This document shows, one piece after another, positions 51,912 through 63,482 of a stretch of 64,000 nt of DNA. The notes beneath the pieces were generated by a model. It saw nothing but the letters and a program-made list of their open reading frames with translations, had not been told where the DNA came from and searched no databases. Position numbers and translations under genes: made by a program. Origin of the DNA: an uncultured Phycisphaerae bacterium (lineage in GTDB: Bacteria; Planctomycetota; Phycisphaerae; Sedimentisphaerales; Anaerobacaceae); contig CAWHBY010000001.1 in assembly GCA_963827855.1 (NCBI GenBank), forward strand, positions 133,799-197,798. The letters are read 5' to 3'. Position 1 is the first letter of the stretch, and every line of letters begins with the position of its first letter.

Positions 51912-53030
51912 TCACCAGGCTCTCCCATGGCTACGGCCGGTGTTACAGCCACCCACATTCTGCAACTCGGCCGGGTCGGCTGAGAACCACTTGCCCTTGA
52001 GCCACAGGCTCACGTTCACCAGACCGATGAGCACGGGCACCTCCACCAGCGGGCCGATGACCGCGGCAAATGCCGCCCCATGGTTGATGCCGAATACACC
52101 CACCGCTACCGCGATGGCCAGCTCGAAGTTGTTGCTCGCGGCTGTGAAGGACAGCGTGGCCGACTTGGCGTAGTTGGCCCCGGCCTTCTTGCCCATCCAG
52201 AAACTCACCAGGAACATGACCACGAAGTAGATCAACAGCGGGATGGCGATTCGCACGACGTCCAGCGGTTTGGCGATGATCTTCTGACCCTGCATGGAGA
52301 ACATGACCACGATGGTGAACAGAAGGGCTATCAGGGTGATGGGGCTGATCTTTGGAATGAACCGCCCGTGATACCACTCCTTGCCCTTGGTCTTGACCAG
52401 GACGAGCCGAGTGAGCATGCCGACCAGGAACGGGATGCCGAGGTAGATGAAGACGCTCCTCGCAATCTCGCCGACGGTGATCTTCGATGTGTCGGCGCCC
52501 TGGAAGCCAAGCAGGGGCGGGAGCACCGTGATGAACAGATAGGCGTATACGCTGTAGAAGAGCACCTGGAATATGGAGTTGAAGGCCACCAGGCCCGCGC
52601 AGTACTCGGTGTCGCCCTTGGCGAGGTCATTCCACACGATGACCATGGCAATACAACGGGCCAGGCCGATCATGATCAGGCCGATCATGAACTCAGGCTG
52701 GCCCCTGAGGAACAACACGGCCAGAACGAACATCAGTATGGGGCCGATGATCCAGTTTTGCACGAGGCTCAGGCCCAGCACCCGCCAGTTGCGGAAGACG
52801 TCGCCCAGTTCTTCGTACTTGACCTTGGCCAGGGGCGGATACATCATGAGGATCAGCCCGAGGGCAATTGGAATGCTGGTCTGTGTCCCTTCCGGGCGGA
52901 GGGAGCCGATCCAATTACCGACTGCCGGGGCAGAATAGCCCATCACCACACCGACGGCCATCGCCAGGAAGATCCACAACGTCAAGAACCGGTCCAGAAA
53001 TGAAAGCCTCTTTGCGATTCCTTCGCTCAT
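51912..53030 (-). CDS. acr3: ACR3-family arsenite efflux transporter
   Basis: Start trimmed to ATG 53030 ([24 protein letters not shown]). Motifs [27 protein letters not shown] and [11 protein letters not shown]. Confidence 0.9.
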
Positions 53031-53043
53031 AGACAGACTCCTG

Positions 53044-54615
53044 TCACGAGTGCTTCGTTGCGCTTCGACCAAAGCAACAAGCCGGGGTATCCTGTACTGG
53101 CGAATCCAACAGGCCTTTCGCAAAGTCCTTCATGGCGGACATAGAGCCCTTCTCAACCTGATGACCGACGTTCACAGCCTCGCGGATATCCTGGTCGTCG
53201 ATCCCCATCTCCTGGGCCTTGCCCAGATGGTACTTCAGGCAGGGCTGGCAGTGGGCCGTGACCGATGCACCCAAGGCAATCAGCTCCTTGAGCCTGGGCG
53301 CAAGCGTCTGGCCCGGCTTGACCGCCGAGATGCTCAGACTTGTCACGAAGTCACTGGGCTTCGTGCCCGCCGGGACCTTGGCAGCGATATCGCGGTACAG
53401 GGGATCTGACCATGAGGCCATGCTGTCCACGTAGTTGGCCTTGGCCTCAAACATCGCATCAGCCAGGCCTGCGGCCTCGACCATGGCCTTGGTCTCATCC
53501 ACGAGTACTGCCCCGGCCACGCACCCGATCAGGGCCTGTACGGACTGGCGGATCTCTTCAGGCAGGGACCGCAGCAGGGCAAGGTCCGACACGGCCACCC
53601 GGCCACCCGGCCTGAGCACCCTGGCGATCTCCCGCCAGACCTGGGCCTTGTCGGGCGAGAGGTTGATTACGCAGTTCGAGATCACCACGTCCACACTGGC
53701 GTCCGCCACAGGCAGGTGCTCTATCTCTCCGAGCCTGAACTCGACATTGGCAAGCCCCGTCTTTTGCCGAAAGACCTCGATCCCGGCCCTTGCCTTGGTT
53801 ACCATGTCGGCTGTCATGTCTACGCCGATAGCGAGGCCCTTGGCCCCTACCTTCTTGGCTGCGACGAATACGTCCAAGCCTGCCCCAGCCCCAAGGTCCA
53901 GGACCACCTCGCCCTCACGGAGGGATGCCAAGGCGGTCGGGTTGCCGCAGGACAGGCCCATGTTCGCACCTTCCGGGAGGTCCTTTAGATCGGCCTGATC
54001 GTATCCGACGGCCTCTGTCACAGAAGCGGCTGTCGGACCACCGCAACAGGACGACGGCCCGCAGCACGAGCCACCCTGCTGGGCGATCTTGCCGTATTCC
54101 TGGCGTACCACGCTCCGCACGTCCTTATCCGTGCCACCTGTACTCATACTTGAGCCTCCATTCGTTGATGTCTCTGTCGAGAGGTTCTCCGGCATGCCCT
54201 GGACAAAGGCTCGGATCTGGTCTCTGACCCGGCGATAGCAGTCCAGTGCCTCCTTTTCGGTCTTGGCCTGGGCAGCCAGTCTGGGCGGGTCATCGAAACC
54301 GACGTGGATGACCTTCGTCCTGCCTGGAAAGAACGGGCACTGTTCATGCGCGTTGTCACAGACCGTGACGACATAGTCGAAGGGGATGCCCTTCAGTTCG
54401 TCCACGTGCTTGGACCGCTGGCCGGAGATATCCACGCCGGCTTCGGCCGTGACCTTGACGGCCCTGGGGTCGAGGCCATGCGGGTCGATCCCCGCCGAAT
54501 AGGGCTCAATCACGTCGCCTTTGAGGTGCCGGGTCCAGCCCTCGGCCATCTGGCTCCGGCAGGAATTGCCCGTGCACAAGAACAAGATCTTCAGCCTTTT
54601 CGTTGGTTGCAGCAC
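53044..54615 (-). CDS. Triple fusion: thioredoxin-coupled ArsC (LMW-PTP type), ArsM As(III) SAM-methyltransferase, and a CMD/AhpD-like domain
   Basis: aa 8-145: [30 protein letters not shown]. aa ~160-440: [55 protein letters not shown]. aa ~445-523: [20 protein letters not shown]. Confidence 0.85.
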
Positions 54616-54953
54616 AGGTGCTCCTTGTTCATCCTCAGGACCTTGCCAAGTGCCCGTTTGTCATTCTGGATGATCGGGTCCTCCCGGCCGTGGGCTGTGG
54701 CCCATTCGATGGCCTGTTGGATGGCCTGGCCTGGTTGATCGGCCAGTCTGTAATGCATCCACCGACCTTCCTTTCGGGCCTCGACCAGCCCCGCCTGCTT
54801 GAGGATCGAGATGTGCTTGGACACGGTCGAGGTGGCGAGCTGCAGAACCTCTGTGACTTGGCAGACGCACAGTTCACCACCTGCCAGCATCGATACTACC
54901 CTGACTCGGTTCAGGTCCGATAGGGCCTTGGCAATCGCTACGACTGGGTTCAT
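54591..54953 (-). CDS. arsR: ArsR/SmtB-family metalloregulator
   Basis: 120 aa. LSDLNRVRVVSMLAGGELCVCQVTEVLQLATSTVSKHISILKQAGLV (CVC metal site). First gene of the ars operon. Its stop overlaps the start of the next gene by 25 nt. Confidence 0.9.
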   Translation of the reverse strand: MNPVVAIAKALSDLNRVRVVSMLAGGELCVCQVTEVLQLATSTVSKHISILKQAGLVEARKEGRWMHYRLADQPGQAIQQAIEWATAHGREDPIIQNDKRALGKVLRMNKEHLCCNQRKG

Positions 54954-55118: not shown

Positions 55119-56801
<1,683 letters not shown>

Positions 56802-57365
56802 AGCAAGAGCCTCAAGAAACGAATCCTAAGCGTAAATCGTTCGGCAGGTCGGCGGGCGAGAAGGCCGCGATAACGGCACGGGAAATGCAAGCCAACAGGC
56901 AAAACGACAGGAGGGATGGCCGAAAATCAGGGTGGAGTAACACCGCGCCCGAGCCAGATTACCTCGGAGCGGCAGTTCCACCATGATGGTGCAACAATCA
57001 GCATGTGGACATCTTACCAACGGCTACGGGAGATGTCAACCCTAAGATCCTGATTGATTCACATCTCAATTCACTGTACATGGCCCCGTGCACGGCGTTC
57101 GGCAGGTCGACATGTTCCCCTGAGATGAATCCGATGATATGCCGGTCCAGGACCTCCGTAAAGTGGGATATAGGAAGAATCTCCCCGGGGCATCTGTGAC
57201 CGGGTAGGCCCAACCGGACCGCCGTCTCAAAGCCACCTTGTCGGATCCGGCCGGTCCGTTTCCGGACCGGGTCTGCGCGTCAGACGAGTCTCAGAGCGAC
57301 CTTGCCGCTCAAGGCAAAGCCATGTGTCTCTTCTCCTTTCATCAAATATGCAGCGGTGGGGGATG

Positions 57366-58061
57366 TCACGCCTTGTAGATCAAGTACACCCCTGCCACCA
57401 GGATCAGCACGCCGCAGACCTTCTTCACGATCACTGCGCCCTTGGATCGCTCGTTCCAATCCATGTACCGCTGGACGACCTCGGTGAACGTGCCGGCCAG
57501 GACGATCACAGAGCAGTGGCCGATGCCGTACACGAGCAAGAGAAGGACGCCGTAGCCCAGGGCGGTGGCAGCCAGCCTGAAGGTGACCGCAAGCATGGGG
57601 GCCATGTAGGCAAAGGTGCACGGACCCAGGGCGATGCCGAAGACCAGGCCCAAAACAAAGGCCGCCAGCATACCTTTCTTACGCATTCCGACCTGGCCAG
57701 GCCCTGACCAGGGCATGGGGATGACATCCAGGAGATAGAGCCCTACCAGAAAGAAGATCACGGCCACCCCGTAGTTGCCCCAGCGTCCCACGTCTCCCAT
57801 CATGCGGCCTGCCATGGCCGTGATGGCCCCAATGACGCCGATCGTGATCAGGACGCCCACGGCGAAGAGCGCCGAAAGCCCGAAGGCACGCCGGGTCGAT
57901 GTCACACCCTGTCCGTTGATGAAGCCCACGATCAGGGGGATGCTGGCCAGGTGGCAGGGACTGAGCAGGATACTGAGGATGCCCCAGACAAAGGCTGCAC
58001 CCAGGGCGATCGCAGGGGTGCCCTCGACGGCATGGGTCAGTGCAGTAAACAGGCTTTCCAT
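57366..58061 (-). CDS. ccdA: CcdA/DsbD-type thiol:disulfide interchange membrane protein
   Basis: 231 aa and about 6 TM. Conserved TM cysteines in LLSPCHLASIPL and ALGPCTFAYMAP. Confidence 0.85.
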   Translation of the reverse strand: MESLFTALTHAVEGTPAIALGAAFVWGILSILLSPCHLASIPLIVGFINGQGVTSTRRAFGLSALFAVGVLITIGVIGAITAMAGRMMGDVGRWGNYGVAVIFFLVGLYLLDVIPMPWSGPGQVGMRKKGMLAAFVLGLVFGIALGPCTFAYMAPMLAVTFRLAATALGYGVLLLLVYGIGHCSVIVLAGTFTEVVQRYMDWNERSKGAVIVKKVCGVLILVAGVYLIYKA

Positions 58062-58064
58062 TGG

Positions 58065-58973
58065 CTACTTGACTCCCATCTCAGCCAGTTTCTTCTCGAT
58101 CTCATCCTGTGGCCAGAAGCCCACGTGGCGGAAGACCTCCTTGCCGTCCTTGTCATAGAAGAACTGCATGGGAATGCTCGAAATGCCGTATCGAGCTGCC
58201 AGGACCTGTTCCTGGCCCACGTGGACGAACACCACGTTCACCTTGCCCGCGTATTTGGTCTTCAGGGTCTCCAGGATCGGGGCCAGCATATCGCAGGGCC
58301 TGCAGCCCGTGGAGCCGAAGTCCACCAGGGAGGGCCTGCCGCTTGCGCGGGCCTTGTCCACGGGATTGTCCTTGGCCAGGACGGCCTGTGCCTTGGCCCA
58401 TACATCAGAGACCTCGATCGGCATTCGTTGGCCCAGGGTGCGGACGTGCTGCTCGACCAAGTCCTGCTGTTTCTGCTGGAGGACCACCTGCTTGATTTGG
58501 CCCTTCACCTGGGCCAGGGTAGCCCCGCCACAGGCGTCCTTGTTGGCCTGGTAGAATTCGGCGACCTCCTGGTCCGAGACCGTCACCTTCTCCACGATGC
58601 CTTGCAGGTAGCGCTGGATCAGGTTCCGTTCATTGGGATCGGCGCTCGACGTCTGGGCCTTGGCGGCCTGAGCAAGCAGCTTGGTCGTGGCCGTTCCTTC
58701 CAGGACATGGAAGGCGTTCTTGCGGAGTTGTTCCTGTTGCGCCTGGGGGGCCTGGGCGATCCGTTCTGCGACCTCCTTCTCGCTGATGGCCAGGGTTCCC
58801 GCCTTCAAGAGCACGCCCTCAGGCAGGGTCGCCAATCTGGCGTAAGTCAGGGCCCCACTGGCCAGACCTGGATAGACGTCCTGGACGCAGGAGGGGTCTG
58901 ACAGGGCATAGGCGGAGGGCACACAGGCCCATGCGATACCGATTATGACGGATTCAACGATGTAGCCTCTCAT
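58065..58973 (-). CDS. Periplasmic SurA_N-like chaperone module fused to thioredoxin (CRPC)
   Basis: Signal peptide MRGYIVESVIIGIAWACVPSAYA. Helical Gln/Ala-rich module. C-terminal Trx fold LVDFGSTGCRPCDMLAPILE..IPMQFFYDKDGKEV. Confidence 0.7.
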   Translation of the reverse strand: MRGYIVESVIIGIAWACVPSAYALSDPSCVQDVYPGLASGALTYARLATLPEGVLLKAGTLAISEKEVAERIAQAPQAQQEQLRKNAFHVLEGTATTKLLAQAAKAQTSSADPNERNLIQRYLQGIVEKVTVSDQEVAEFYQANKDACGGATLAQVKGQIKQVVLQQKQQDLVEQHVRTLGQRMPIEVSDVWAKAQAVLAKDNPVDKARASGRPSLVDFGSTGCRPCDMLAPILETLKTKYAGKVNVVFVHVGQEQVLAARYGISSIPMQFFYDKDGKEVFRHVGFWPQDEIEKKLAEMGVK

Positions 58974-59015
58974 ACAGCGACTCCTCTGCCCCCAAAGGGG
59001 CCTTCACAGTCAGTA

Positions 59016-60281
59016 TCACTTTGGAGCACACTCGCCGATCTTGCAGGCCTTCTTGATCTGGTCGGGCGAGAGCTTCATCTTGTCGGCCAATGCCTGAGCG
59101 ATGGAGATGAGCCTGCCGGTCTCGTGAGGGTTCTTCTCAACCCACTTCCTGAGGTTGTCTGCGTTCGTAAAGAAACCTTGGTGGAAACAGCCGGCAGAGG
59201 CCCAGGTGCCATCGGGCTTCTGACGCTGTCCGAACCAGGCCACCGCAGTCGCCGGCTCCAGGGAGGCGATCTTGCCTTCAAAGGTCTTGACCACGATTGC
59301 GTCGCCGGTCAGGCGATCCTTTTCGTGGACCTCGATGTCCTTGCCCGTGCGGGCCGCCACGCCCAGTGCGCAGTGGGAGCAGCAGCCCCAGGTGTGCACT
59401 CCGCCTTGTACGATGACCTCGGCCACGTCCTGCGGATAGACCGCTCGGTCGCAGAATCCGCAGCGATGGGATAGCTCTTTCTGCTGAAGTGCCGCCAGCG
59501 CAAGGACACTCCCCCCGCTGGCCGCCCGCTCTGCGACAGCGGTATCCCTTCCTGTAAACGCCTTGACCCACGGCCTGCCTGTGGCCTCGTCCTCGCCGCA
59601 GAGGAACGCGGCCTCGGAGATCGGGATCGGTTTGCCTGCGGTCCAATCCATGACCGTGACCTTCTTCTCAAAGCCGGTCTTGTCCTCTGTCAGACACGAG
59701 ACCATGATGAAGTAGCAGTGGGGGTCGCACAGTCTGACAGGTCCCTTGTCGGTTTGCACGGTCACCGCGGTCTTCTCCTGGATGTCGCCGTCACACATGT
59801 AGCAGATGCGGTCCTTGGGCCGCTCATCAGTCTTGGCTGGTGACAGCCGCTCGAACGCGGGGCTCGCAGCAGAGGCCGTGGCGAGGTTGACGCCCATCTC
59901 CGTCCACTTGGCGAGTATGTCTTCCTTGGAGAAGAAGCCTTCATGACGGAACAACTCCTTGCCGGCCGCATCGAAGAAGATCTGCGTGGGGATGAGCTGG
60001 ATACCATAGGGCGTGCCGAGGTCGGGGTTCTTGCCCACGTCAACGAACATGACCTCCAGCCTCCCTGCATAGTCCTTCTTGAGTTCTTCCAAAATAGGGG
60101 CCATCATTTTGCAGGGGATGCACGTGGTGGACCCGAGATCGACCAGCCTGGGCAGCCCTGAAGAACTCGCCTCCATCGAGGCGATGCCAGAGGGTGCCGT
60201 GCGGCCTTGCTTGACGGCCAGCACCACAGCCACAGCAACGACCAGGCCAATGACCACAACGATCTTGATGATCTTGTTCAT
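59016..60281 (-). CDS. Membrane-anchored thioredoxin (CIPC), NosL-like Cys-rich module and MerB-like (alkylmercury-lyase fold) C-terminal domain
   Basis: Start trimmed to ATG 60281 (AAGGAG RBS; MNKIIKIVVVIGLVVAVAVVLAV anchor). Trx fold LVDLGSTTCIPCKMMAPILE..IPTQIFFDAAGKEL. Cys-rich module ICYMCDGDI..VRLCDPHCYF. The C-terminus aligns by eye to MerB: HCALG vs WCALD, LEPATAVAW vs VEPAGMAVS, GCFHQGFF vs CCHVHFF, GRLISIAQAL vs GLAIVSVHEAF. Confidence 0.6.
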   Translation of the reverse strand: MNKIIKIVVVIGLVVAVAVVLAVKQGRTAPSGIASMEASSSGLPRLVDLGSTTCIPCKMMAPILEELKKDYAGRLEVMFVDVGKNPDLGTPYGIQLIPTQIFFDAAGKELFRHEGFFSKEDILAKWTEMGVNLATASAASPAFERLSPAKTDERPKDRICYMCDGDIQEKTAVTVQTDKGPVRLCDPHCYFIMVSCLTEDKTGFEKKVTVMDWTAGKPIPISEAAFLCGEDEATGRPWVKAFTGRDTAVAERAASGGSVLALAALQQKELSHRCGFCDRAVYPQDVAEVIVQGGVHTWGCCSHCALGVAARTGKDIEVHEKDRLTGDAIVVKTFEGKIASLEPATAVAWFGQRQKPDGTWASAGCFHQGFFTNADNLRKWVEKNPHETGRLISIAQALADKMKLSPDQIKKACKIGECAPK

Positions 60282-60411
60282 AACGTCTCCTTTGGCCCTC
60301 AAAACGGAGGGAATCCATGAAAACACAAGCCACATCCCGACCGCGCAGGCCAGGAGGACCCAGAAGTTGGCCTTGACACAACTGCAACCCTGTGCCAGCA
60401 GCATCATTGTC

Positions 60412-60792
60412 TCATCCACAGGCTATCATCTCGGCGGCCTTCGCAGCGACCTTGTTGACGTTGTCTTCAGTCGCAGGGCTCTTGCCCTTCTCCAGGCCGA
60501 GGTCCGCCAGTTGCAGATGCTTGAAGGTCTTGAACCCGGCCTGCTCCAGGCTGGCCTTGACGCAGTTGAGCGGACAGCCATCAACGGCCAGGATAGTCTG
60601 GGCCGACTCGGTGGTCTTGAGGATGCCGCTGATGCGGCCGCCCAGGCCGGCCATGCAGAACATCTTGCCTGTGCCTTCGCGGTTGAGCTTTCTGGCCGCC
60701 CGATCTGCGATCTCGCCCACATCGGCAGCCCCGCTGCACGCAAACACCAGTTTCGGTCCGCCACTGCATCCACACGATTGCTGATTGCTCAT
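60412..60792 (-). CDS. DGC-domain putative zinc-binding protein
   Basis: 126 aa. FACSGAADVGE, CMAGLGG and AVDGCPLNC motifs. Confidence 0.75.
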   Translation of the reverse strand: MSNQQSCGCSGGPKLVFACSGAADVGEIADRAARKLNREGTGKMFCMAGLGGRISGILKTTESAQTILAVDGCPLNCVKASLEQAGFKTFKHLQLADLGLEKGKSPATEDNVNKVAAKAAEMIACG

Positions 60793-60823
60793 CTGTCGTC
60801 CTTTCTGCGTCTGTTCCCGTTGC

Positions 60824-61060
60824 TTACGCCAGCATCTTCTTGATCTCCTCCGGCGAAGGCACCTTGCCCACGACCTTGACTTGGCCGTCCACGGCCAGGG
60901 CAGGAGTCATCATGACGCCAAAGGCCATGATCTGATTGATGTCCGTCAGCTTTTCCAGGGTGTACTCTACACCCAGTTCCTTGGCCGCTGTCTCGGTGTT
61001 CTCAGCCAGCTTCTTGCACTTGGCACAGCCGGTTCCAAGTATCTGTAGCTTCTTCACCAT
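60824..61060 (-). CDS. Thioredoxin_3 family (redox-active disulfide protein 2-like)
   Basis: Start trimmed to ATG 61060. MVKKLQILGTGCAKCKKL..TPALAVDGQVKVVGKVPSPEEIKKML. Confidence 0.85.
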   Translation of the reverse strand: MVKKLQILGTGCAKCKKLAENTETAAKELGVEYTLEKLTDINQIMAFGVMMTPALAVDGQVKVVGKVPSPEEIKKMLA

Positions 61061-61067
61061 GTACTCC

Positions 61068-62609
61068 TTAGAAGATCGCCCCAAAAATCATACCACTGAT
61101 TGTGGCCATCACGACCACCAGCGAGACGAACACTACAGTCTTCTGCGTGCCCATGATGCTGCGTAAGACCAGCATACTGGGCAGCGACAGGGCAGGCCCT
61201 GCCAGAAGCAGGGCCAGGGCCGGACCTTTACCCATGCCCGACCCGATCAGGCCCTGGAGGATCGGGACCTCGGTCAGGGTGGCGAAGTACATGAACGCCC
61301 CGAATATGCTGGAGAAGAAGTTGGTCCACAATGGCCAGACGGCCCGGGCAAGGCCCTCGAATGCCCCGCCGCCCCAGCCGGTGATCGCCAAGAAGGTGTC
61401 CGGGCTGTCGCCCACGAGCATCTTGACGTACTTGCTGGGGATGAACCCCTCGTGGTCCACACGTCCAAGCAGGAATCCGGCTACCAGCACACCGAAGAAC
61501 AGCAAGGGCAGGATCTGCTTGGCAAAGGCCCACGTAGACGCAAACCACTCCCCGGCCTCACCCTTGTCAGTGCTGGTGATGGCCGACAATCCCACAACGG
61601 CCGCTGCGAAGGGAATCATGAGCATCATGCCCTGCATGGGAAGGACCAGGGCAAGGATCACGGCCGGAACCGCGGCCAGGACCACCTTCCACCACTTGAT
61701 GGCGAACCAGAAGACAAGGATCAGCGAGAACGCGACTGCAAAGGCGGTCGTCACAAGCCATTTGTGCTGCCAGATCGTCGTCCACGTGCCGGACACAGGC
61801 GTCTTTGTCTGGATTGTAGCAGCGGTGATGGTCATATCTTTACCCGTATCCGGCCCGCTGATGACCTTCAATGAGTAAGAAGCTCCCTCCGCCGCGGGAT
61901 TCTCCGGGGCCTTAACGACAGCAGCCTCGAACTGCTGCCCATTATTCAGCTTGAAGGCGAACGCGTTAGGTGCGCCCCAGTTGGCGAAGACCAGGATGCC
62001 GATCATGACCGCGAAGAACAGGGCGTTCTGCCATAAAGGCCTGGACACCTGCGGCTCAGGTGCAGCCATCTGGGCCTCGACCTTGGCCTGTTCCTCCTTG
62101 CGATAGATCAGGTGCATCAGCAGGCCGATGATCACGCTGAAGCCGATCGCGCCCACGGCCCGGGCAATGCCCAGCTCCAGGCCCAGGATGCGGGCGGTCA
62201 GGATGATGGCCAGCACATTGATCGCAGGACCGGAATACAGGAATGCACAGGCCGGTCCCAGGCCCGCGCCCATCCGCCAGATGCCGGCGAACAGGGGCAA
62301 CACCGTGCACGAACAGACTGCCAGGATCGAGCCGGAGACGGAGGCCACACCATAGGCCAGGATCTTGTTGGCCCTGGCCCCGAGGTACTTCATCACAGAG
62401 GCCTGGCTGACGAACACGCCGATCGCCCCGGCAATGAAAAAGGCCGGGATTAGGCACAGCAGCACGTGCTCGCGTGCGTACCACTTGAGCAGGTGAAGGG
62501 CCTCCATGACCGCGTTGTCGAATTGCCCCCAGCCCACGGGCAGCCAGAAGAACGCGACGAACACCGCCACGATGGCGGCCAACTTCTTCCACTCGCTTTT
62601 CCAATCCAT
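61068..62609 (-). CDS. ArsP_1/DUF318-family permease (two-half architecture with an inserted soluble loop)
   Basis: Start trimmed to ATG 62609 (MDWKSEWKKLAAIVAVF). Motif SVSGSILAVCSCTVLPLFAGIWRMGAGLGPACAFLYSGPAINVLAI. Second half: FMYFATLTEVPILQGLIGSGMGKGPALALLLAGPALSLPSMLVL. Confidence 0.8.
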   Translation of the reverse strand: MDWKSEWKKLAAIVAVFVAFFWLPVGWGQFDNAVMEALHLLKWYAREHVLLCLIPAFFIAGAIGVFVSQASVMKYLGARANKILAYGVASVSGSILAVCSCTVLPLFAGIWRMGAGLGPACAFLYSGPAINVLAIILTARILGLELGIARAVGAIGFSVIIGLLMHLIYRKEEQAKVEAQMAAPEPQVSRPLWQNALFFAVMIGILVFANWGAPNAFAFKLNNGQQFEAAVVKAPENPAAEGASYSLKVISGPDTGKDMTITAATIQTKTPVSGTWTTIWQHKWLVTTAFAVAFSLILVFWFAIKWWKVVLAAVPAVILALVLPMQGMMLMIPFAAAVVGLSAITSTDKGEAGEWFASTWAFAKQILPLLFFGVLVAGFLLGRVDHEGFIPSKYVKMLVGDSPDTFLAITGWGGGAFEGLARAVWPLWTNFFSSIFGAFMYFATLTEVPILQGLIGSGMGKGPALALLLAGPALSLPSMLVLRSIMGTQKTVVFVSLVVVMATISGMIFGAIF

Positions 62610-62665
62610 GCGATTGCCTGCCTTCAAGTACTCACTTATAGGCGACGAAGGAAGACCATCGTCGA

Positions 62666-63007
62666 TCACCGAGGGTTCAGTTTCAGCGTCTTCAAGAGCA
62701 CGGCCTCTTGCCGAGTCCTTTCCCGGAGAGCCTGATCGACGCATCCCAGGAAACTGAGGATACACGGTATACGAAGCCTGTAGATCACCTTCAGCCCATC
62801 CTTGCGGCTCTCCAACACTCCCGCCCTGAGCATGACCGACAGATGCCTGGAGACATTCGATCGCTGCGCGCCCACGTGCTCGACAATATCGCAGACGCAC
62901 TGCTCACCCTGACTGAGAAACTCAATGATGGCAAGCCGGATAGGATGTCCAGCAGCTTGGATGATCTCCGCCTTCAATTGGTAGCATCTTCTTGTGTCTG
63001 CATTCAT
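62666..63007 (-). CDS. ArsR/SmtB-family metalloregulator (second copy)
   Basis: 113 aa. AAGHPIRLAIIEFLSQGEQCVCDIVEHVGAQRSNVSRHLSVMLRAGVL. Confidence 0.85.
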   Translation of the reverse strand: MNADTRRCYQLKAEIIQAAGHPIRLAIIEFLSQGEQCVCDIVEHVGAQRSNVSRHLSVMLRAGVLESRKDGLKVIYRLRIPCILSFLGCVDQALRERTRQEAVLLKTLKLNPR

Positions 63008-63038
63008 ATCTGCACCTACTCGGCAGAAAGGATATACA

Positions 63039-63067
63039 ACTATAACATGGTTTACTCACATATGCAA
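63039..63067 (-). promoter_or_regulatory. Promoter of the second ArsR-controlled cluster
   Basis: Minus strand: TTGCAT (63067-63062), a 17-nt spacer, TATAGT (63044-63039), about 31 nt before ATG 63007. AT-rich island. Confidence 0.5.
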
Positions 63068-63107: not shown

Positions 63108-63482
63108 TCAGTTGTGGGGACACTTCTTCAGGCACATGAACCAGTCCAAGCACTTCACGTCTGGGTCGCGTTTGTCCATGCGATCCTTGTCCAATTGCTC
63201 AATGGACGACCTGGAGCCCGCAGGCATGTGGATGGCCCTGACCAACTCGCCGGGCTTGATGCTGTACCGGTCAACGACCACCCCTGGGTGGCAGAAGAGG
63301 CGGGCATTCCTGGCCATGGATAGAACGTCCCACGGCCCGCCTGTGTGGTCATAGTGTCCGTGGCTGAGGACCACGGCGTCCAGGCTGGACAGGTCGATAC
63401 CAAGGGAGCGGCAGTTCTCCGGCAAGGCAGGCCCCTGGCCCGTGTCGAAGAGGACCCGCGTGTGATCCGTCTCAATGAGCAC
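63108..63482 (-). pseudogene. Truncated MBL-fold hydrolase (COG1237-like) fragment
   Basis: ..LIETDHTRVLFDTGQG..LGIDLSSLDAVVLSHGHYDHTGG matches the family core, but the ORF is only 124 aa. In-frame sequence upstream (DSNADEWSGHGLA) has no start. An ATG-AAA lies one frame off at about 63525, and the C-terminal half of the fold is missing. Confidence 0.5.

What the first reader, a model, noticed from the sequence alone, without database searches (positions are those of the whole stretch)
57366..63067. ArsR-controlled cluster coupling an ArsP-like permease to an extracytoplasmic thiol-redox relay and a MerB-like domain (candidate novel organometal(loid) system)
Seen: seven co-directional minus-strand genes have gaps of 56, 7, 31, 130, 42 and 3 nt, downstream of a TTGCAT-17-TATAGT promoter. 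They encode ArsR (CVCD site), an ArsP_1/DUF318 permease, Thioredoxin_3 (CAKC), a DGC-domain protein, an N-in membrane-anchored Trx (CIPC) + NosL-like + MerB-like protein, a signal-peptide SurA_N-like + Trx (CRPC) protein, and CcdA. Established: CcdA/DsbD proteins carry reducing equivalents across the membrane to periplasmic thioredoxins. ArsP exports trivalent organoarsenicals. MerB cleaves carbon-metal bonds with a Cys/Cys/Asp triad. The ArsR-permease-Trx_3-DGC core recurs in anaerobes without an assigned function. Inference: the cluster encodes an envelope-located, thiol-powered pathway that processes and exports an organometal(loid) or soft metal, next to a canonical ars operon 2.4 kb away. 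I know of no characterised system with this composition.
Basis: partly seen in the sequence, partly recalled or inferred. Interest (0 to 1): 0.7.

Follow-up and report, generated by a model that had tools for sequence, protein, structure and literature searches.

The report
Arsenic-island periplasmic thiol relay, MerB-like
An anaerobic planctomycete carries, inside its arsenic-resistance island, a conserved but uncharacterised operon that appears to pass reducing power across the membrane to a cysteine-packed outer-compartment protein; that protein is built like the mercury enzyme MerB and the copper chaperone NosL but lacks MerB's catalytic aspartate, so it probably binds arsenic compounds rather than cutting them.

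Summary
Seven co-directional minus-strand genes (57366-63007) encode ArsR, an ArsP_1 permease, an ArsE-type small thioredoxin, a DGC protein, a membrane-anchored Trx + NosL-like + MerB-like fusion, a secreted Trx and CcdA.

Corrections:
- The "130-nt gap" is coding. It is a conserved N-terminal extension (Cys pair + extra TM helix), so the real gap is 4 nt.
- The MerB triad is not kept. Asp99 is an invariant Cys (C301/C304/C365).
- "SurA_N-like" has only faint support.
- The promoter matches the consensus at only 8 of 12 positions.

The organism is a Sedimentisphaerales planctomycete. The fusion gene was found in at least 110 species genomes, and 80 loci were examined. It is followed by ccdA in 59/64 loci and preceded by the small Trx in 63/65. 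arsM or acr3 lies in the same locus in 26/36 wide loci, and sits inside the cluster in about 11 of the 80. A 46%-identical Trx-less relative also lies next to Acr3 and a methyltransferase.

Best reading: an ArsR-controlled arsenic-island module in which cytoplasmic Trx, CcdA and periplasmic Trx keep a NosL/MerB-fold Cys site reduced, so that it can bind or hand over trivalent (organo)arsenicals alongside the permease. A lyase or reductase role is not excluded. I found no published description. It is a new variant of known kinds.

The parts
63039..63067 (-). Candidate promoter TTGCAT-17-TATAGT upstream of arsR
   Evidence: Present in the sequence. It matches the sigma-70 consensus at 8 of 12 positions and falls below the scan threshold. 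Unverified.
62666..63007 (-). ArsR/SmtB metalloregulator (113 aa) with a CVCD site and a C-terminal Cys pair
   Evidence: HTH_5 56.6 bits; NF033788 79.5 bits against 55. C37 and C39 are kept in 47/48 orthologues, C82 and C89 in 48/48.
61068..62609 (-). ArsP_1/DUF318-family permease (513 aa), with a roughly 180-residue insert relative to the Pfam model
   Evidence: PF03773 203.6 bits. Below the cut-offs of the SO_0444 and SaoE families. The C99-S-C101 motif is kept in 51/52 orthologues and C52 in 50/52.
60824..61060 (-). Small cytoplasmic thioredoxin-like protein (78 aa, CAKC), MTH895/ArsE family
   Evidence: PF13192 96.8 bits; TIGR00412 112.5 bits against 62. The CxxC motif is kept in 68/68 orthologues. 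The gene lies upstream of the fusion gene in 63/65 loci.
60412..60792 (-). DGC-domain Cys-rich protein (126 aa), no export signal
   Evidence: PF08859 104.3 bits. Five Cys are conserved. Present in 37/62 loci.
59016..60407 (-). Fusion protein, long form 463 aa: N-terminal Cys pair, TM1, basic loop, TM2, thioredoxin (CIPC), NosL-like 4-Cys module, MerB-like 6-Cys module, C-terminal CKIGEC. An internal ATG at 60281 with a strong AAGGAG site would give a 421-aa short form.
58065..58973 (-). Secreted protein (302 aa): signal-like N-terminus, helical domain, thioredoxin (CRPC)
   Evidence: Thioredoxin 50.5 bits. The CxxC motif is kept in 39-42 of 42 orthologues. Present in 37/64 loci. The SurA-like label has only faint support.
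57366..58061 (-). CcdA-type membrane thiol-disulfide transporter (231 aa)
   Evidence: DsbD_TM 44.5 bits against 27.1. C36 and C148 are kept in 66/66 orthologues. The gene lies downstream of the fusion gene in 59/64 loci.
57251..57320 (-). G+C-rich hairpins after ccdA (possible end of the operon)
   Evidence: Inverted repeat of 8 nt at 100% complementarity, 57251-57270, and a second hairpin read by eye at about 57297-57320. Neither is followed by a T-run. Weak evidence.
51912..54953 (-). Neighbouring canonical ars operon: arsR, an ArsC(LMWP)-ArsM-AhpD/CMD fusion and acr3
   Evidence: arsenite methyltransferase NF008823 316 bits against 263; ACR3 TIGR00832 455 bits against 283.

Best explanation
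This is an ArsR-controlled accessory module of the arsenic-resistance island of an anaerobic Sedimentisphaerales planctomycete.

Proposed mechanism (every step is inferred; none is demonstrated):
1. The cytoplasmic ArsE-type small thioredoxin supplies electrons to CcdA.
2. CcdA passes them across the inner membrane to the secreted thioredoxin (CRPC) and/or the thioredoxin domain (CIPC) of the membrane-anchored fusion protein.
3. These keep the many cysteines of the attached NosL/MerB-fold tandem domain reduced. That domain carries two CX2C-X21-22-CX3C sites, an extra Cys301 and Cys365, and a flexible C-terminal CX4C tail.
4. The domain acts as a periplasmic thiolate binding and hand-over site for a trivalent arsenical, As(III) or methyl/aryl-As(III). 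It works with the ArsP-family permease (CxC motif in a membrane helix) and, in the long form, with its own Cys pair at the outer membrane face. This would resemble the cysteine chain of the mer system or the NosL chaperone.

Because the catalytic Asp of MerB is replaced by Cys, I read the MerB-like part as a binding or transfer module, not a canonical carbon-metal lyase.
For: Domain identities.

Fold: the AlphaFold model of the C-terminal 281 residues has pLDDT 88.8 and pTM 0.84. In the PDB it matches only MerB/MerB2 (E 1e-8 to 2e-5) and the periplasmic copper chaperone NosL (E 8e-4 to 3.5e-2, probability 1.0). The two halves are homologous to each other (hhalign 93.7%, E 1.8e-7).

Active-site alignment to solved MerB: C301 aligns with Cys96, C304 with Asp99 and C365 with Cys159. 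All 14 key Cys are invariant in 115 close relatives, and 10 of them are kept in most of 11 divergent ones.

Topology: the strongly basic loop RAKGDVMNKIIK lies between two hydrophobic helices, and the neighbouring Trx has a signal-like N-terminus. CcdA has both TM cysteines in 66/66 orthologues.

Synteny in 80 genome loci: ccdA 59/64, small Trx 63/65, permease 44/49, arsR 41/49.

Arsenic link: arsM or acr3 lies in the same locus in 26/36 wide loci, and between the permease and the small Trx in about 11 loci (for example L031, L050, L055, L056, L069, L072, L075, L076). A 46%-identical relative without Trx is followed by DUF6951, Acr3 and an ArsM-like methyltransferase. The other families recurring within 7 kb that were annotated are housekeeping or unrelated genes; no mer, nos or cytochrome-c-maturation genes were among them.

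Regulator: ArsR has a conserved CVC site.

Published precedent: the ArsR-ArsP-ArsE-DGC operon of Pseudodesulfovibrio mercurii ND132 is reported to be upregulated in As(III)- and As(V)-treated cultures (bioRxiv 10.1101/2022.10.17.512643).
Against: - No experiment bears on this protein family. Substrate, direction of transport and electron path are all inferred.
- A stoichiometric periplasmic binding site does not by itself explain resistance.
- The permease is sometimes separated from the rest by arsM and acr3, so the two halves may not work together.
- An ArsR with a CVC site can also sense Cd, Pb, Bi or Sb.
- One related locus (L001) carries true hgcAB in the same island, so mercury species remain possible ligands.
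- The four-Cys sites could simply be structural zinc sites.
- No model coordinates were available, so I could not check the geometry of the Cys cluster.
Confidence: 0.45

Rival explanations
1. The MerB-like domain is an oxygen-independent organometal(loid) lyase. It cleaves C-As (methyl- or aryl-arsenite) or C-Hg bonds by protonolysis in the periplasm, with a tri-thiolate site in place of Cys/Asp/Cys, and it is recycled by the Trx-CcdA relay.
For: - The only enzymatic activity known for this fold is C-Hg protonolysis. The domain matches MerB by HMM and by fold.
- Cys96 and Cys159 equivalents are invariant.
- The locus sits beside arsM, which makes methylarsenicals.
- One relative has hgcAB in the same island.
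- ArsI, the known C-As lyase, needs O2, and no anaerobic demethylating enzyme is established (bioRxiv 10.64898/2026.08.27.747368).
- From my own memory, not checked here: synthetic tris-thiolate Hg-alkyl complexes undergo facile protonolysis.
Against: - The Asp99 position, which is the proton relay of MerB, is an invariant Cys.
- The closest solved relative is MerB2, the natural Asp-less variant. From memory, that variant and the D99S mutant are reported as copper-binding with impaired lyase activity.
- The protein scores far below the NCBIfam MerB cut-offs: 28-30 bits against 193-200.
- As-C bonds are chemically resistant to protonolysis (general chemistry).
- The CX2C...CX3C pattern looks like a metal-binding treble clef rather than a catalytic pocket.
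Confidence: 0.15
2. The fusion protein is a periplasmic thiol-cascade reductase for pentavalent arsenic species (arsenate, thioarsenates or methylated As(V)). It would work like thioredoxin-coupled ArsC, but outside the cytoplasm, using successive Cys pairs and the C-terminal CX4C tail, with electrons from Trx and CcdA.
For: - A covalently attached Trx, a second Trx and a dedicated CcdA imply continuous electron consumption. That suits an enzyme better than a passive binding site.
- There are many invariant Cys pairs, including a low-confidence (flexible) C-terminal CKIGEC tail.
- The locus lies in an arsenic island, in organisms recovered from sediment, digester and lake metagenomes according to the record titles.
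Against: - The fold bears no relation to any known arsenate reductase.
- A cytoplasmic ArsC is already encoded next door.
- Making more toxic As(III) in the periplasm has no obvious benefit.
- No oxyanion-binding loop was detected.
Confidence: 0.15
3. The periplasmic part is not an arsenic handler. It is either a general envelope thiol-repair or protection system co-induced with ars genes, or a NosL-like chaperone that inserts Cu or Zn into a periplasmic enzyme. Its neighbourhood with the permease and the ars genes is then regulatory convenience only.
For: - Fold match to NosL.
- Distant double-domain relatives occur outside ars contexts, for example P0165 next to a MacB/FtsX-type ABC transporter.
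- The permease can be separated from the module by other genes.
- From memory: CcdA/DsbD-type relays serve copper tolerance in the Scs system.
Against: - Arsenic genes accompany the module persistently, including in a divergent relative.
- No candidate client metalloenzyme, nos gene or cytochrome-maturation gene recurs nearby.
- The module lies under an ArsR-type regulator with a CVC site in 41/49 loci.
Confidence: 0.15

Closest known systems
MerB / MerB2 organomercurial lyase (PDB 3f0o, 1s6l, 5c17)
   Same: Same fold for the last ~160 residues (Foldseek E 1e-8 to 2e-5). Pfam PF03243 scores above its gathering score. The Cys96 and Cys159 equivalents are invariant.
   Different: Asp99 is replaced by Cys. 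There is an extra CX2C knuckle and a Cys at the Trp95 position. MerB's own N-terminal domain is replaced by a NosL-like duplicate. The protein is fused to a thioredoxin, membrane-anchored and predicted periplasmic. It sits in an ars context, not a mer context, and scores far below the NCBIfam MerB cut-offs.
NosL periplasmic copper chaperone (PDB 7og7; NosDFYL 7znq, 7osg)
   Same: Same fold (E 8e-4, probability 1.0). Both are extracytoplasmic and membrane-tethered, and NosL has a metal hand-over role. Distant relatives of the window protein hit Pfam NosL.
   Different: There is no Pfam NosL hit on the window protein and there are no nos genes nearby. It is anchored by TM helices rather than a lipobox. 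Its sites are Cys-rich, and it is fused to Trx.
CcdA/DsbD-fed periplasmic thioredoxin relays (CcdA-ResA/CcmG in cytochrome c maturation; ScsB-ScsC in copper tolerance)
   Same: A CcdA with two TM cysteines lies next to exported CxPC thioredoxins. From general knowledge, these relays move reducing power outward.
   Different: The terminal acceptor is a covalently attached NosL/MerB-fold Cys domain. No cytochrome-maturation partner genes recur nearby. The unit is under ArsR control inside an ars island.
SAO system proposed by Haft and Gwadz (bioRxiv 10.1101/2022.07.06.499078)
   Same: It is found in anaerobes only. It combines a MerB-like protein (SaoL), an ArsP-family efflux protein (SaoE) and a small thioredoxin-like protein (SaoT). 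It is also uncharacterised, and it was proposed to handle an organometallic compound.
   Different: The window cluster has no ABC importer and no selenocysteine. SaoL is cytosolic, about 200 aa and unfused. The window permease scores 88.8 bits against the SaoE cut-off of 325, and there were no SaoL or SaoT hits. The SAO system is not linked to ars genes or to CcdA.
ArsR-ArsP-ArsE-DGC operons of anaerobes (e.g. Pseudodesulfovibrio mercurii ND132 'operon C') and ArsEFG of Shewanella
   Same: The first four genes have the same composition. The ND132 operon is reported to be upregulated in arsenic-treated cultures. The small Trx passes the ArsE-family model, and 25 of 80 relatives also carry an ArsF-family gene.
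   Different: Those operons lack the periplasmic fusion protein, the second Trx and CcdA. The window itself lacks arsF. The ArsEFG paper could not be read here.
mer transport chain (MerP-MerT/MerF-MerA)
   Same: The idea is the same: a thiophilic ion passes along paired cysteines from a periplasmic binder, through a Cys pair at the membrane face, to cytoplasmic thiols. The long form of the fusion protein has a CxC or CC pair just before TM1, like MerT and MerF (general knowledge).
   Different: No homology to MerP, MerT or MerA was found. The direction of transport is unknown. The context is arsenic, not mercury.

Membership tests
MerB organomercurial lyase | Match to Pfam PF03243 above its gathering score | tested here: met
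   69.2 bits against 27, residues 290-398 of the 421-aa form. 71.6 bits for the isolated C-terminal part.
MerB organomercurial lyase | Passes the NCBIfam MerB models (NF009710 equivalog, NF033555 exception) | tested here: not met
   28.3 and 29.8 bits against cut-offs of 193 and 200.
MerB organomercurial lyase | Catalytic Cys96 and Cys159 | tested here: met
   C301 and C365 align to them. Both are invariant in 115 close relatives. Among the 11 divergent relatives, C301 is kept in 10 and C365 in 9.
MerB organomercurial lyase | Catalytic Asp99 (proton relay) | tested here: not met
   The aligned residue is C304. It is Cys in all 126 relatives examined.
MerB organomercurial lyase | MerB fold | tested here: met
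   Foldseek: 5c17 E 1.3e-8, 3f2f E 3e-7, TM-score (target) about 0.5.
MerB organomercurial lyase | Cytoplasmic enzyme encoded in a mer operon (merR, merT, merP, merA) | tested here: not met
   The protein is predicted to be extracytoplasmic. Its neighbours are ars genes. No mer genes were among the annotated families recurring within 7 kb in 81 loci. The topology is a prediction only.
MerB organomercurial lyase | C-Hg bond cleavage activity | not testable with these tools
   Needs an enzyme assay.
NosL copper chaperone | NosL fold | tested here: met
   7og7 E 8.2e-4; 7znq_L E 1.4e-2; probability 1.0.
NosL copper chaperone | Match to Pfam PF05573 | tested here: not met
   No hit at E up to 10 for residues 141-270. 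Only distant relatives (P0165, P0183) carry weak or faint NosL hits.
NosL copper chaperone | Lipoprotein encoded with nosZ/nosDFY | tested here: not met
   The protein is TM-anchored. No nos genes were among the annotated recurrent neighbours.
TRASH/YHS metal-binding domain | Cys pattern C-X2-C-X19-22-C-X3-C | tested here: met
   Read from the sequence: C160/C163/C185/C189 and C274/C277/C300/C304, all invariant in close relatives. The pattern definition is recalled from the literature, not checked here.
TRASH/YHS metal-binding domain | HMM or fold match to TRASH, YHS or L24e | tested here: inconclusive
   No Pfam hit. Only weak local matches to L24e/Rlp24 and to a LIM domain: Foldseek probability 0.3-0.6, HMM E 0.11-0.41.
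CcdA-thioredoxin reductive relay | CcdA/DsbD_TM protein with one conserved Cys in each of two TM helices | tested here: met
   PF02683 44.5 bits against 27.1. C36 and C148 are kept in 66/66 orthologues.
CcdA-thioredoxin reductive relay | Exported thioredoxin-fold partner with a CxxC motif, genetically linked | tested here: met
   There are two Trx modules (CIPC, CRPC) with a TM anchor or signal-like N-terminus. ccdA follows the fusion gene in 59/64 loci. Export is predicted, not shown.
CcdA-thioredoxin reductive relay | Electron transfer from cytoplasm to periplasm | not testable with these tools
   Needs redox-state trapping in vivo.
ArsP methylarsenite efflux permease | Pfam ArsP_1 membership and a vicinal CxC pair in a TM helix | tested here: met
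   203.6 bits. C99-S-C101 is kept in 51/52 orthologues. The functional importance of the Cys pair is recalled from Chen et al. 2015, which could not be read here.
ArsP methylarsenite efflux permease | Efflux of MAs(III) or Rox(III) | not testable with these tools
   The protein is 513 aa, with a ~180-residue insert relative to the 294-position model. Orthology to the characterised ArsP is not established.
SAO system (Haft and Gwadz) | SaoL, SaoE and SaoT family models, an ABC importer, and selenoproteins | tested here: not met
   SaoE NF040736 scores 88.8 bits against 325. There is no SaoL or SaoT hit at E <= 0.01. There are no ABC genes in the cluster.
ArsR/SmtB As(III)-type repressor | HTH_5 fold with a CVC metalloid site in helix 3 | tested here: met
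   The inducer specificity cannot be tested with these tools.

The most novel reading that the evidence does not exclude
The Trx-fused, Asp-less MerB/NosL-fold protein is the missing oxygen-independent organoarsenical (C-As) lyase of anoxic habitats, or a periplasmic methylmercury lyase. It would use a tri-thiolate site and be recycled by a dedicated CcdA-thioredoxin relay.
Probability: 0.12. Interest if true: 0.9.

Novelty: new variant of a known kind. Interest (0 to 1): 0.6.

Why it matters
Arsenic resistance is usually described as a cytoplasmic business of reduction, methylation and efflux. This locus suggests that a widespread group of anaerobic sediment and digester bacteria (at least 110 species genomes) adds a dedicated periplasmic, thiol-powered arm. 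Its end piece is built from the MerB/NosL fold.

If the domain binds or transforms methylated or aromatic arsenicals, it would bear on how toxic methylarsenite is handled, or even demethylated, without oxygen. According to a 2026 preprint, no enzyme is established for that step. It would also show MerB-fold proteins working outside mercury resistance.

There is a practical consequence too. Databases label these proteins 'organomercurial lyase' or 'thioredoxin 1'. The first label is probably wrong, because the catalytic Asp is missing, and the second names only one of the protein's domains.

Tried and rejected
- Mercury-resistance reading: rejected as the main explanation. No mer genes were among the annotated families recurring within 7 kb, the Asp99 position is Cys, and hgcAB occurs in only 1 of 81 loci.
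- Cytochrome c maturation reading of CcdA + Trx: no ccs, res or ccm genes recur nearby, and the terminal domain would be left unexplained.
- Membership of the SAO system: the family cut-offs are not met.
- Whole-protein phmmer and the A2 profile against the PDB were swamped by thioredoxins. A trimmed C-terminal profile, A3, solved this.
- A search with the distant relative P0165 returned only itself.
- Short contigs for P0127, P0137 and P0183 gave little context.
- The papers on ArsEFG, ArsP and the Bacteroides vulgatus ars operon are not held. Statements about them rest on NCBIfam names, on citations in other papers, or on memory.
- Raw six-frame ORF clustering of the loci was noisy, with shadow ORFs in GC-rich DNA and single-linkage merging of Trx proteins. 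I used it only to look for recurrent extra families.

Full report
**1. Observation**

The ORF list shows seven co-directional minus-strand genes between 57366 and 63007.

| Gene | Coordinates | Support |
|---|---|---|
| ArsR | 62666-63007 | HTH_5 56.6 bits; NF033788 79.5 vs 55 |
| Permease | 61068-62609 | ArsP_1 203.6 bits |
| Small thioredoxin | 60824-61060 | Thioredoxin_3 96.8 bits; TIGR00412 'MTH895/ArsE family' 112.5 vs 62 |
| DGC protein | 60412-60792 | DGC 104.3 bits |
| Trx + MerB fusion | 59016-60281 | Thioredoxin 48.9 bits; MerB PF03243 69.2 vs 27 |
| Second Trx protein | 58065-58973 | Thioredoxin 50.5 bits |
| CcdA | 57366-58061 | DsbD_TM 44.5 bits |

The motif TTGCAT-17-TATAGT is at 63067-63039. 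It matches the consensus at only 8 of 12 positions, so the scan did not list it. A canonical ars operon lies 2.4 kb away: arsR, an ArsC-ArsM-AhpD triple fusion and acr3. prfC sits between the two clusters.

**2. Corrections to the anatomy**

The 130-nt 'gap' is coding. The frame of the fusion gene stays open upstream to an ATG at 60407, 4 nt after the DGC stop. This adds MMLLAQGCSCVKAN, a hydrophobic helix and a basic loop (RAKGD) before the MNK start.

- The same extension (a QCCS or QCPCSGG motif plus a helix) is conserved at protein level in many relatives. It is absent, with a nearby stop codon, in others.
- The internal ATG at 60281 keeps a strong AAGGAG site, so both a 463-aa and a 421-aa product are possible.
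- In the long form the loop carries four positive charges. That places it in the cytoplasm, and places both the N-terminal Cys pair and the whole Trx/MerB-like part outside.
- The short form, a single anchor flanked by two Lys on the N side and Lys plus Arg on the C side, gives the same location for the soluble part, although there the charge balance alone is not decisive.
- The neighbouring Trx protein has a signal-like N-terminus ending AYA|LS.
- The small Trx and the DGC protein have no hydrophobic segment, so they are cytoplasmic.

**3. The fusion protein**

PDB sequence searches place the Trx domain at about residues 37-129 of the 421-aa form. Against the PDB, the remaining 281 residues match only MerB2 by sequence (E 5e-10).

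- A profile of the last 140 residues also reaches canonical MerB (E 2e-6). It aligns C300 with Trp95, C301 with Cys96, C304 with Asp99 and C365 with Cys159. The triad is therefore Cys/Cys/Cys, not Cys/Asp/Cys.
- The AlphaFold model of the 281 residues is confident (pLDDT 88.8, pTM 0.84). The full-length model is also good (pLDDT 84.9).
- In the PDB the model matches only MerB/MerB2 (E 1e-8 to 2e-5) and the periplasmic copper chaperone NosL (E 8e-4 to 3.5e-2), plus weak local matches to ribosomal protein L24e.
- The two halves (150-264 and 265-400) are homologous to each other (hhalign 93.7%, E 1.8e-7).
- Each half carries a CX2C-X21-22-CX3C pattern: C160/163/185/189 and C274/277/300/304. The second half adds C301 and C365. 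The protein ends in CKIGEC, in a low-confidence and presumably flexible tail.
- All of these Cys are invariant in 115 close relatives. Ten of them are kept in most of 11 relatives down to 24% identity.

**4. Who has it, and with what**

The closest proteins (78-94% identical) come from Sedimentisphaerales/Phycisphaerae MAGs. Sources name them 'thioredoxin 1', 'hypothetical protein' or 'organomercurial lyase'. A scan of one genome per species found 110 species, and 80 loci were fetched. Nearly all are Planctomycetota of that order. In the 1.84-billion-protein representative library only 129 clusters match at E <= 1e-3, and only 27 at 1e-30, so the family is narrow.

Mapping the window's proteins onto the loci gave these counts among loci with enough flanking sequence:

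| Partner gene | Position relative to the fusion gene | Loci |
|---|---|---|
| ccdA | downstream | 59/64 |
| small Trx | upstream | 63/65 |
| permease | upstream | 44/49 |
| arsR | upstream | 41/49 |
| second Trx | downstream | 37/64 |
| DGC | upstream | 37/62 |

- arsM or acr3 lies in the same locus in 26/36 loci that have at least 6 kb on both sides.
- In about 11 loci arsM and/or acr3 are inserted between the permease and the small Trx. In several others the ars operon starts right after ccdA.
- When arsM and acr3 are inserted, the small Trx stays with the periplasmic module. This fits a role as its cytoplasmic electron donor.
- In 25 loci an ArsF-family gene (NF040494, 86 bits vs 60) sits where the window has its extension. 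At least two of these carry a signal peptide or lipobox-like N-terminus.
- A 46%-identical relative without Trx (P0126) is followed by DUF6951, an Acr3-type gene and an ArsM-like methyltransferase.
- The other annotated families recurring within 7 kb are housekeeping or unrelated genes (PGM/PMM, LpxB, RpoN, MntP, EamA), plus TrmO_N and DUF1805. No mer, nos or cytochrome-maturation genes were among them.
- The rest of the window near the cluster is ordinary chromosome, and its composition is even.

**5. Cysteine conservation in the partners**

- ArsR: C37 and C39 (the CVC site) in 47/48 orthologues; C82 and C89 in 48/48.
- Permease: C99-S-C101 in 51/52; C52 in 50/52.
- Small Trx: CxxC in 68/68.
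- DGC protein: five conserved Cys.
- CcdA: C36 and C148 in 66/66.

**6. Mechanism**

The anatomy is shown. The chemistry is inferred.

The most economical reading is a self-contained electron path: the small cytoplasmic Trx, then CcdA, then the exported Trx modules. This path would keep a periplasmic, membrane-tethered, cysteine-dense NosL/MerB-fold domain reduced. That domain would bind a thiophilic species.

The persistent company of arsR, arsM, acr3 and arsC points to a trivalent arsenical. So does the report that the ArsR-ArsP-ArsE-DGC core of Pseudodesulfovibrio mercurii is upregulated in arsenic-treated cultures (bioRxiv 10.1101/2022.10.17.512643).

Three sets of cysteines suggest hand-over along thiols, as in the mer transport chain or NosL: the CxC pair in the permease, the Cys pair at the outer face of TM1, and the flexible CX4C tail.

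The catalytic Asp is missing, and the nearest solved relative is the natural Asp-less MerB2. I therefore favour binding or transfer over lyase activity (confidence 0.45). The rivals are a tri-thiolate lyase (0.15), a periplasmic reductase (0.15) and a role unrelated to arsenic (0.15).

**7. Comparison with what is known**

The relay resembles CcdA-ResA/CcmG and, functionally, ScsB-ScsC. The end domain resembles MerB2 and NosL. The first four genes resemble known but uncharacterised ArsR-ArsP-ArsE-DGC operons.

The nearest proposed system with a similar parts list is the SAO locus (MerB-like SaoL, ArsP-family SaoE, Trx-like SaoT; bioRxiv 10.1101/2022.07.06.499078). The family cut-offs are not met. 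The window cluster has no ABC importer, no selenocysteine and no cytosolic lyase-like protein, and SAO has no CcdA or ars linkage.

Literature searches for MerB-like proteins in arsenic contexts, and for DGC/thioredoxin/permease clusters, found no description of this fusion.

**8. Verdict**

The feature is real, strongly conserved and uncharacterised. It is a new variant that combines known kinds: an ars accessory module, a CcdA-Trx relay and the MerB/NosL fold.

The envelope thiol relay and the link to arsenic stand. The lyase argument from the triad does not.

Interest is 0.6. The locus offers a concrete, testable candidate for periplasmic handling of arsenicals in anaerobes. The anaerobic demethylating enzyme is still unknown, but the evidence here favours binding over catalysis.

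Noticed in passing
L001:14228-15533 (7.5-Mb contig ERZ25039462 contig_13382): True mercury-methylation genes hgcA (NF040863, 398.6 bits vs 275, with the NVWCAAGK motif) and hgcB (NF040864, 125 bits vs 99) sit in the same island. They come directly after arsR and arsC, about 1.3 kb downstream of the ccdA of the homologous cluster, and are followed by CMD, a Cys-rich 229-aa unknown, arsD, arsA and acr3. Only this one of 81 loci has them.
   Followed up: partly
window 60282-60411; L001:9493-9873; L016:8953-9444; L084:1267-1467: In 25 of 80 related loci an ArsF-family gene ('nitrophenyl compound nitroreductase subunit', NF040494, 86 bits vs 60, CxxC motif) lies between the DGC gene and the fusion gene. 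Longer versions have a signal peptide or lipobox-like N-terminus, which suggests a third exported thiol protein. The window lacks this gene.
   Followed up: partly
window 60282-60407: There is a conserved in-frame N-terminal extension of the fusion protein: a CxC or CC pair plus an extra TM helix. It is present in roughly half of the relatives. The conserved 'KG' codons just before the internal ATG coincide with a Shine-Dalgarno-like AAGGAG, so long and short isoforms may both be made.
   Followed up: partly
window 53044-54615 (-): A triple fusion of a thioredoxin-type ArsC (LMWPc), the arsenite methyltransferase ArsM and an AhpD/CMD domain with CxxC, in one 523-aa ORF.
   Followed up: partly
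window 55119-56801 (-): prfC (release factor 3) separates the cluster from the ars operon here. In several relatives (L001, L005, L009) the ars operon follows ccdA directly, so there has been a local rearrangement.
   Followed up: no
L082:8001-8807 (Bacillota MAG, JBLNCG010000031.1): A distant (28% identical) signal-peptide version of the NosL+MerB double domain, without Trx, lies next to a MacB/FtsX-type ABC transporter and outside any ars context. It carries weak or faint precomputed Pfam hits to both NosL and MerB.
   Followed up: partly
JGI 3300075153 contig carrying P0126 (no DNA fetched): A Trx-less relative (46% identical, with a Cys-rich N-terminus CGCGWG) is followed by DUF6951, an SBF/Acr3-type gene and an ArsM-like methyltransferase.
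   Followed up: no
window 61068-62609 (-): The ArsP_1 permease is 513 aa, about 180 residues longer than the 294-position Pfam model. The insert holds extra hydrophobic helices and a small soluble segment.
   Followed up: no
L026:8175-8699; L076:14143-14451: A TrmO_N-like gene (13 loci; in L026 it lies between the permease and the small Trx) and a DUF1805 gene (16 loci) recur near the cluster. Their role is unknown.
   Followed up: no
window 63108-63482 (-): A short metallo-beta-lactamase-fold ORF (124 aa, matching only the first ~60 positions of the Pfam models) ends 100 nt upstream of arsR. It may be truncated, or its start may be mis-set.
   Followed up: no
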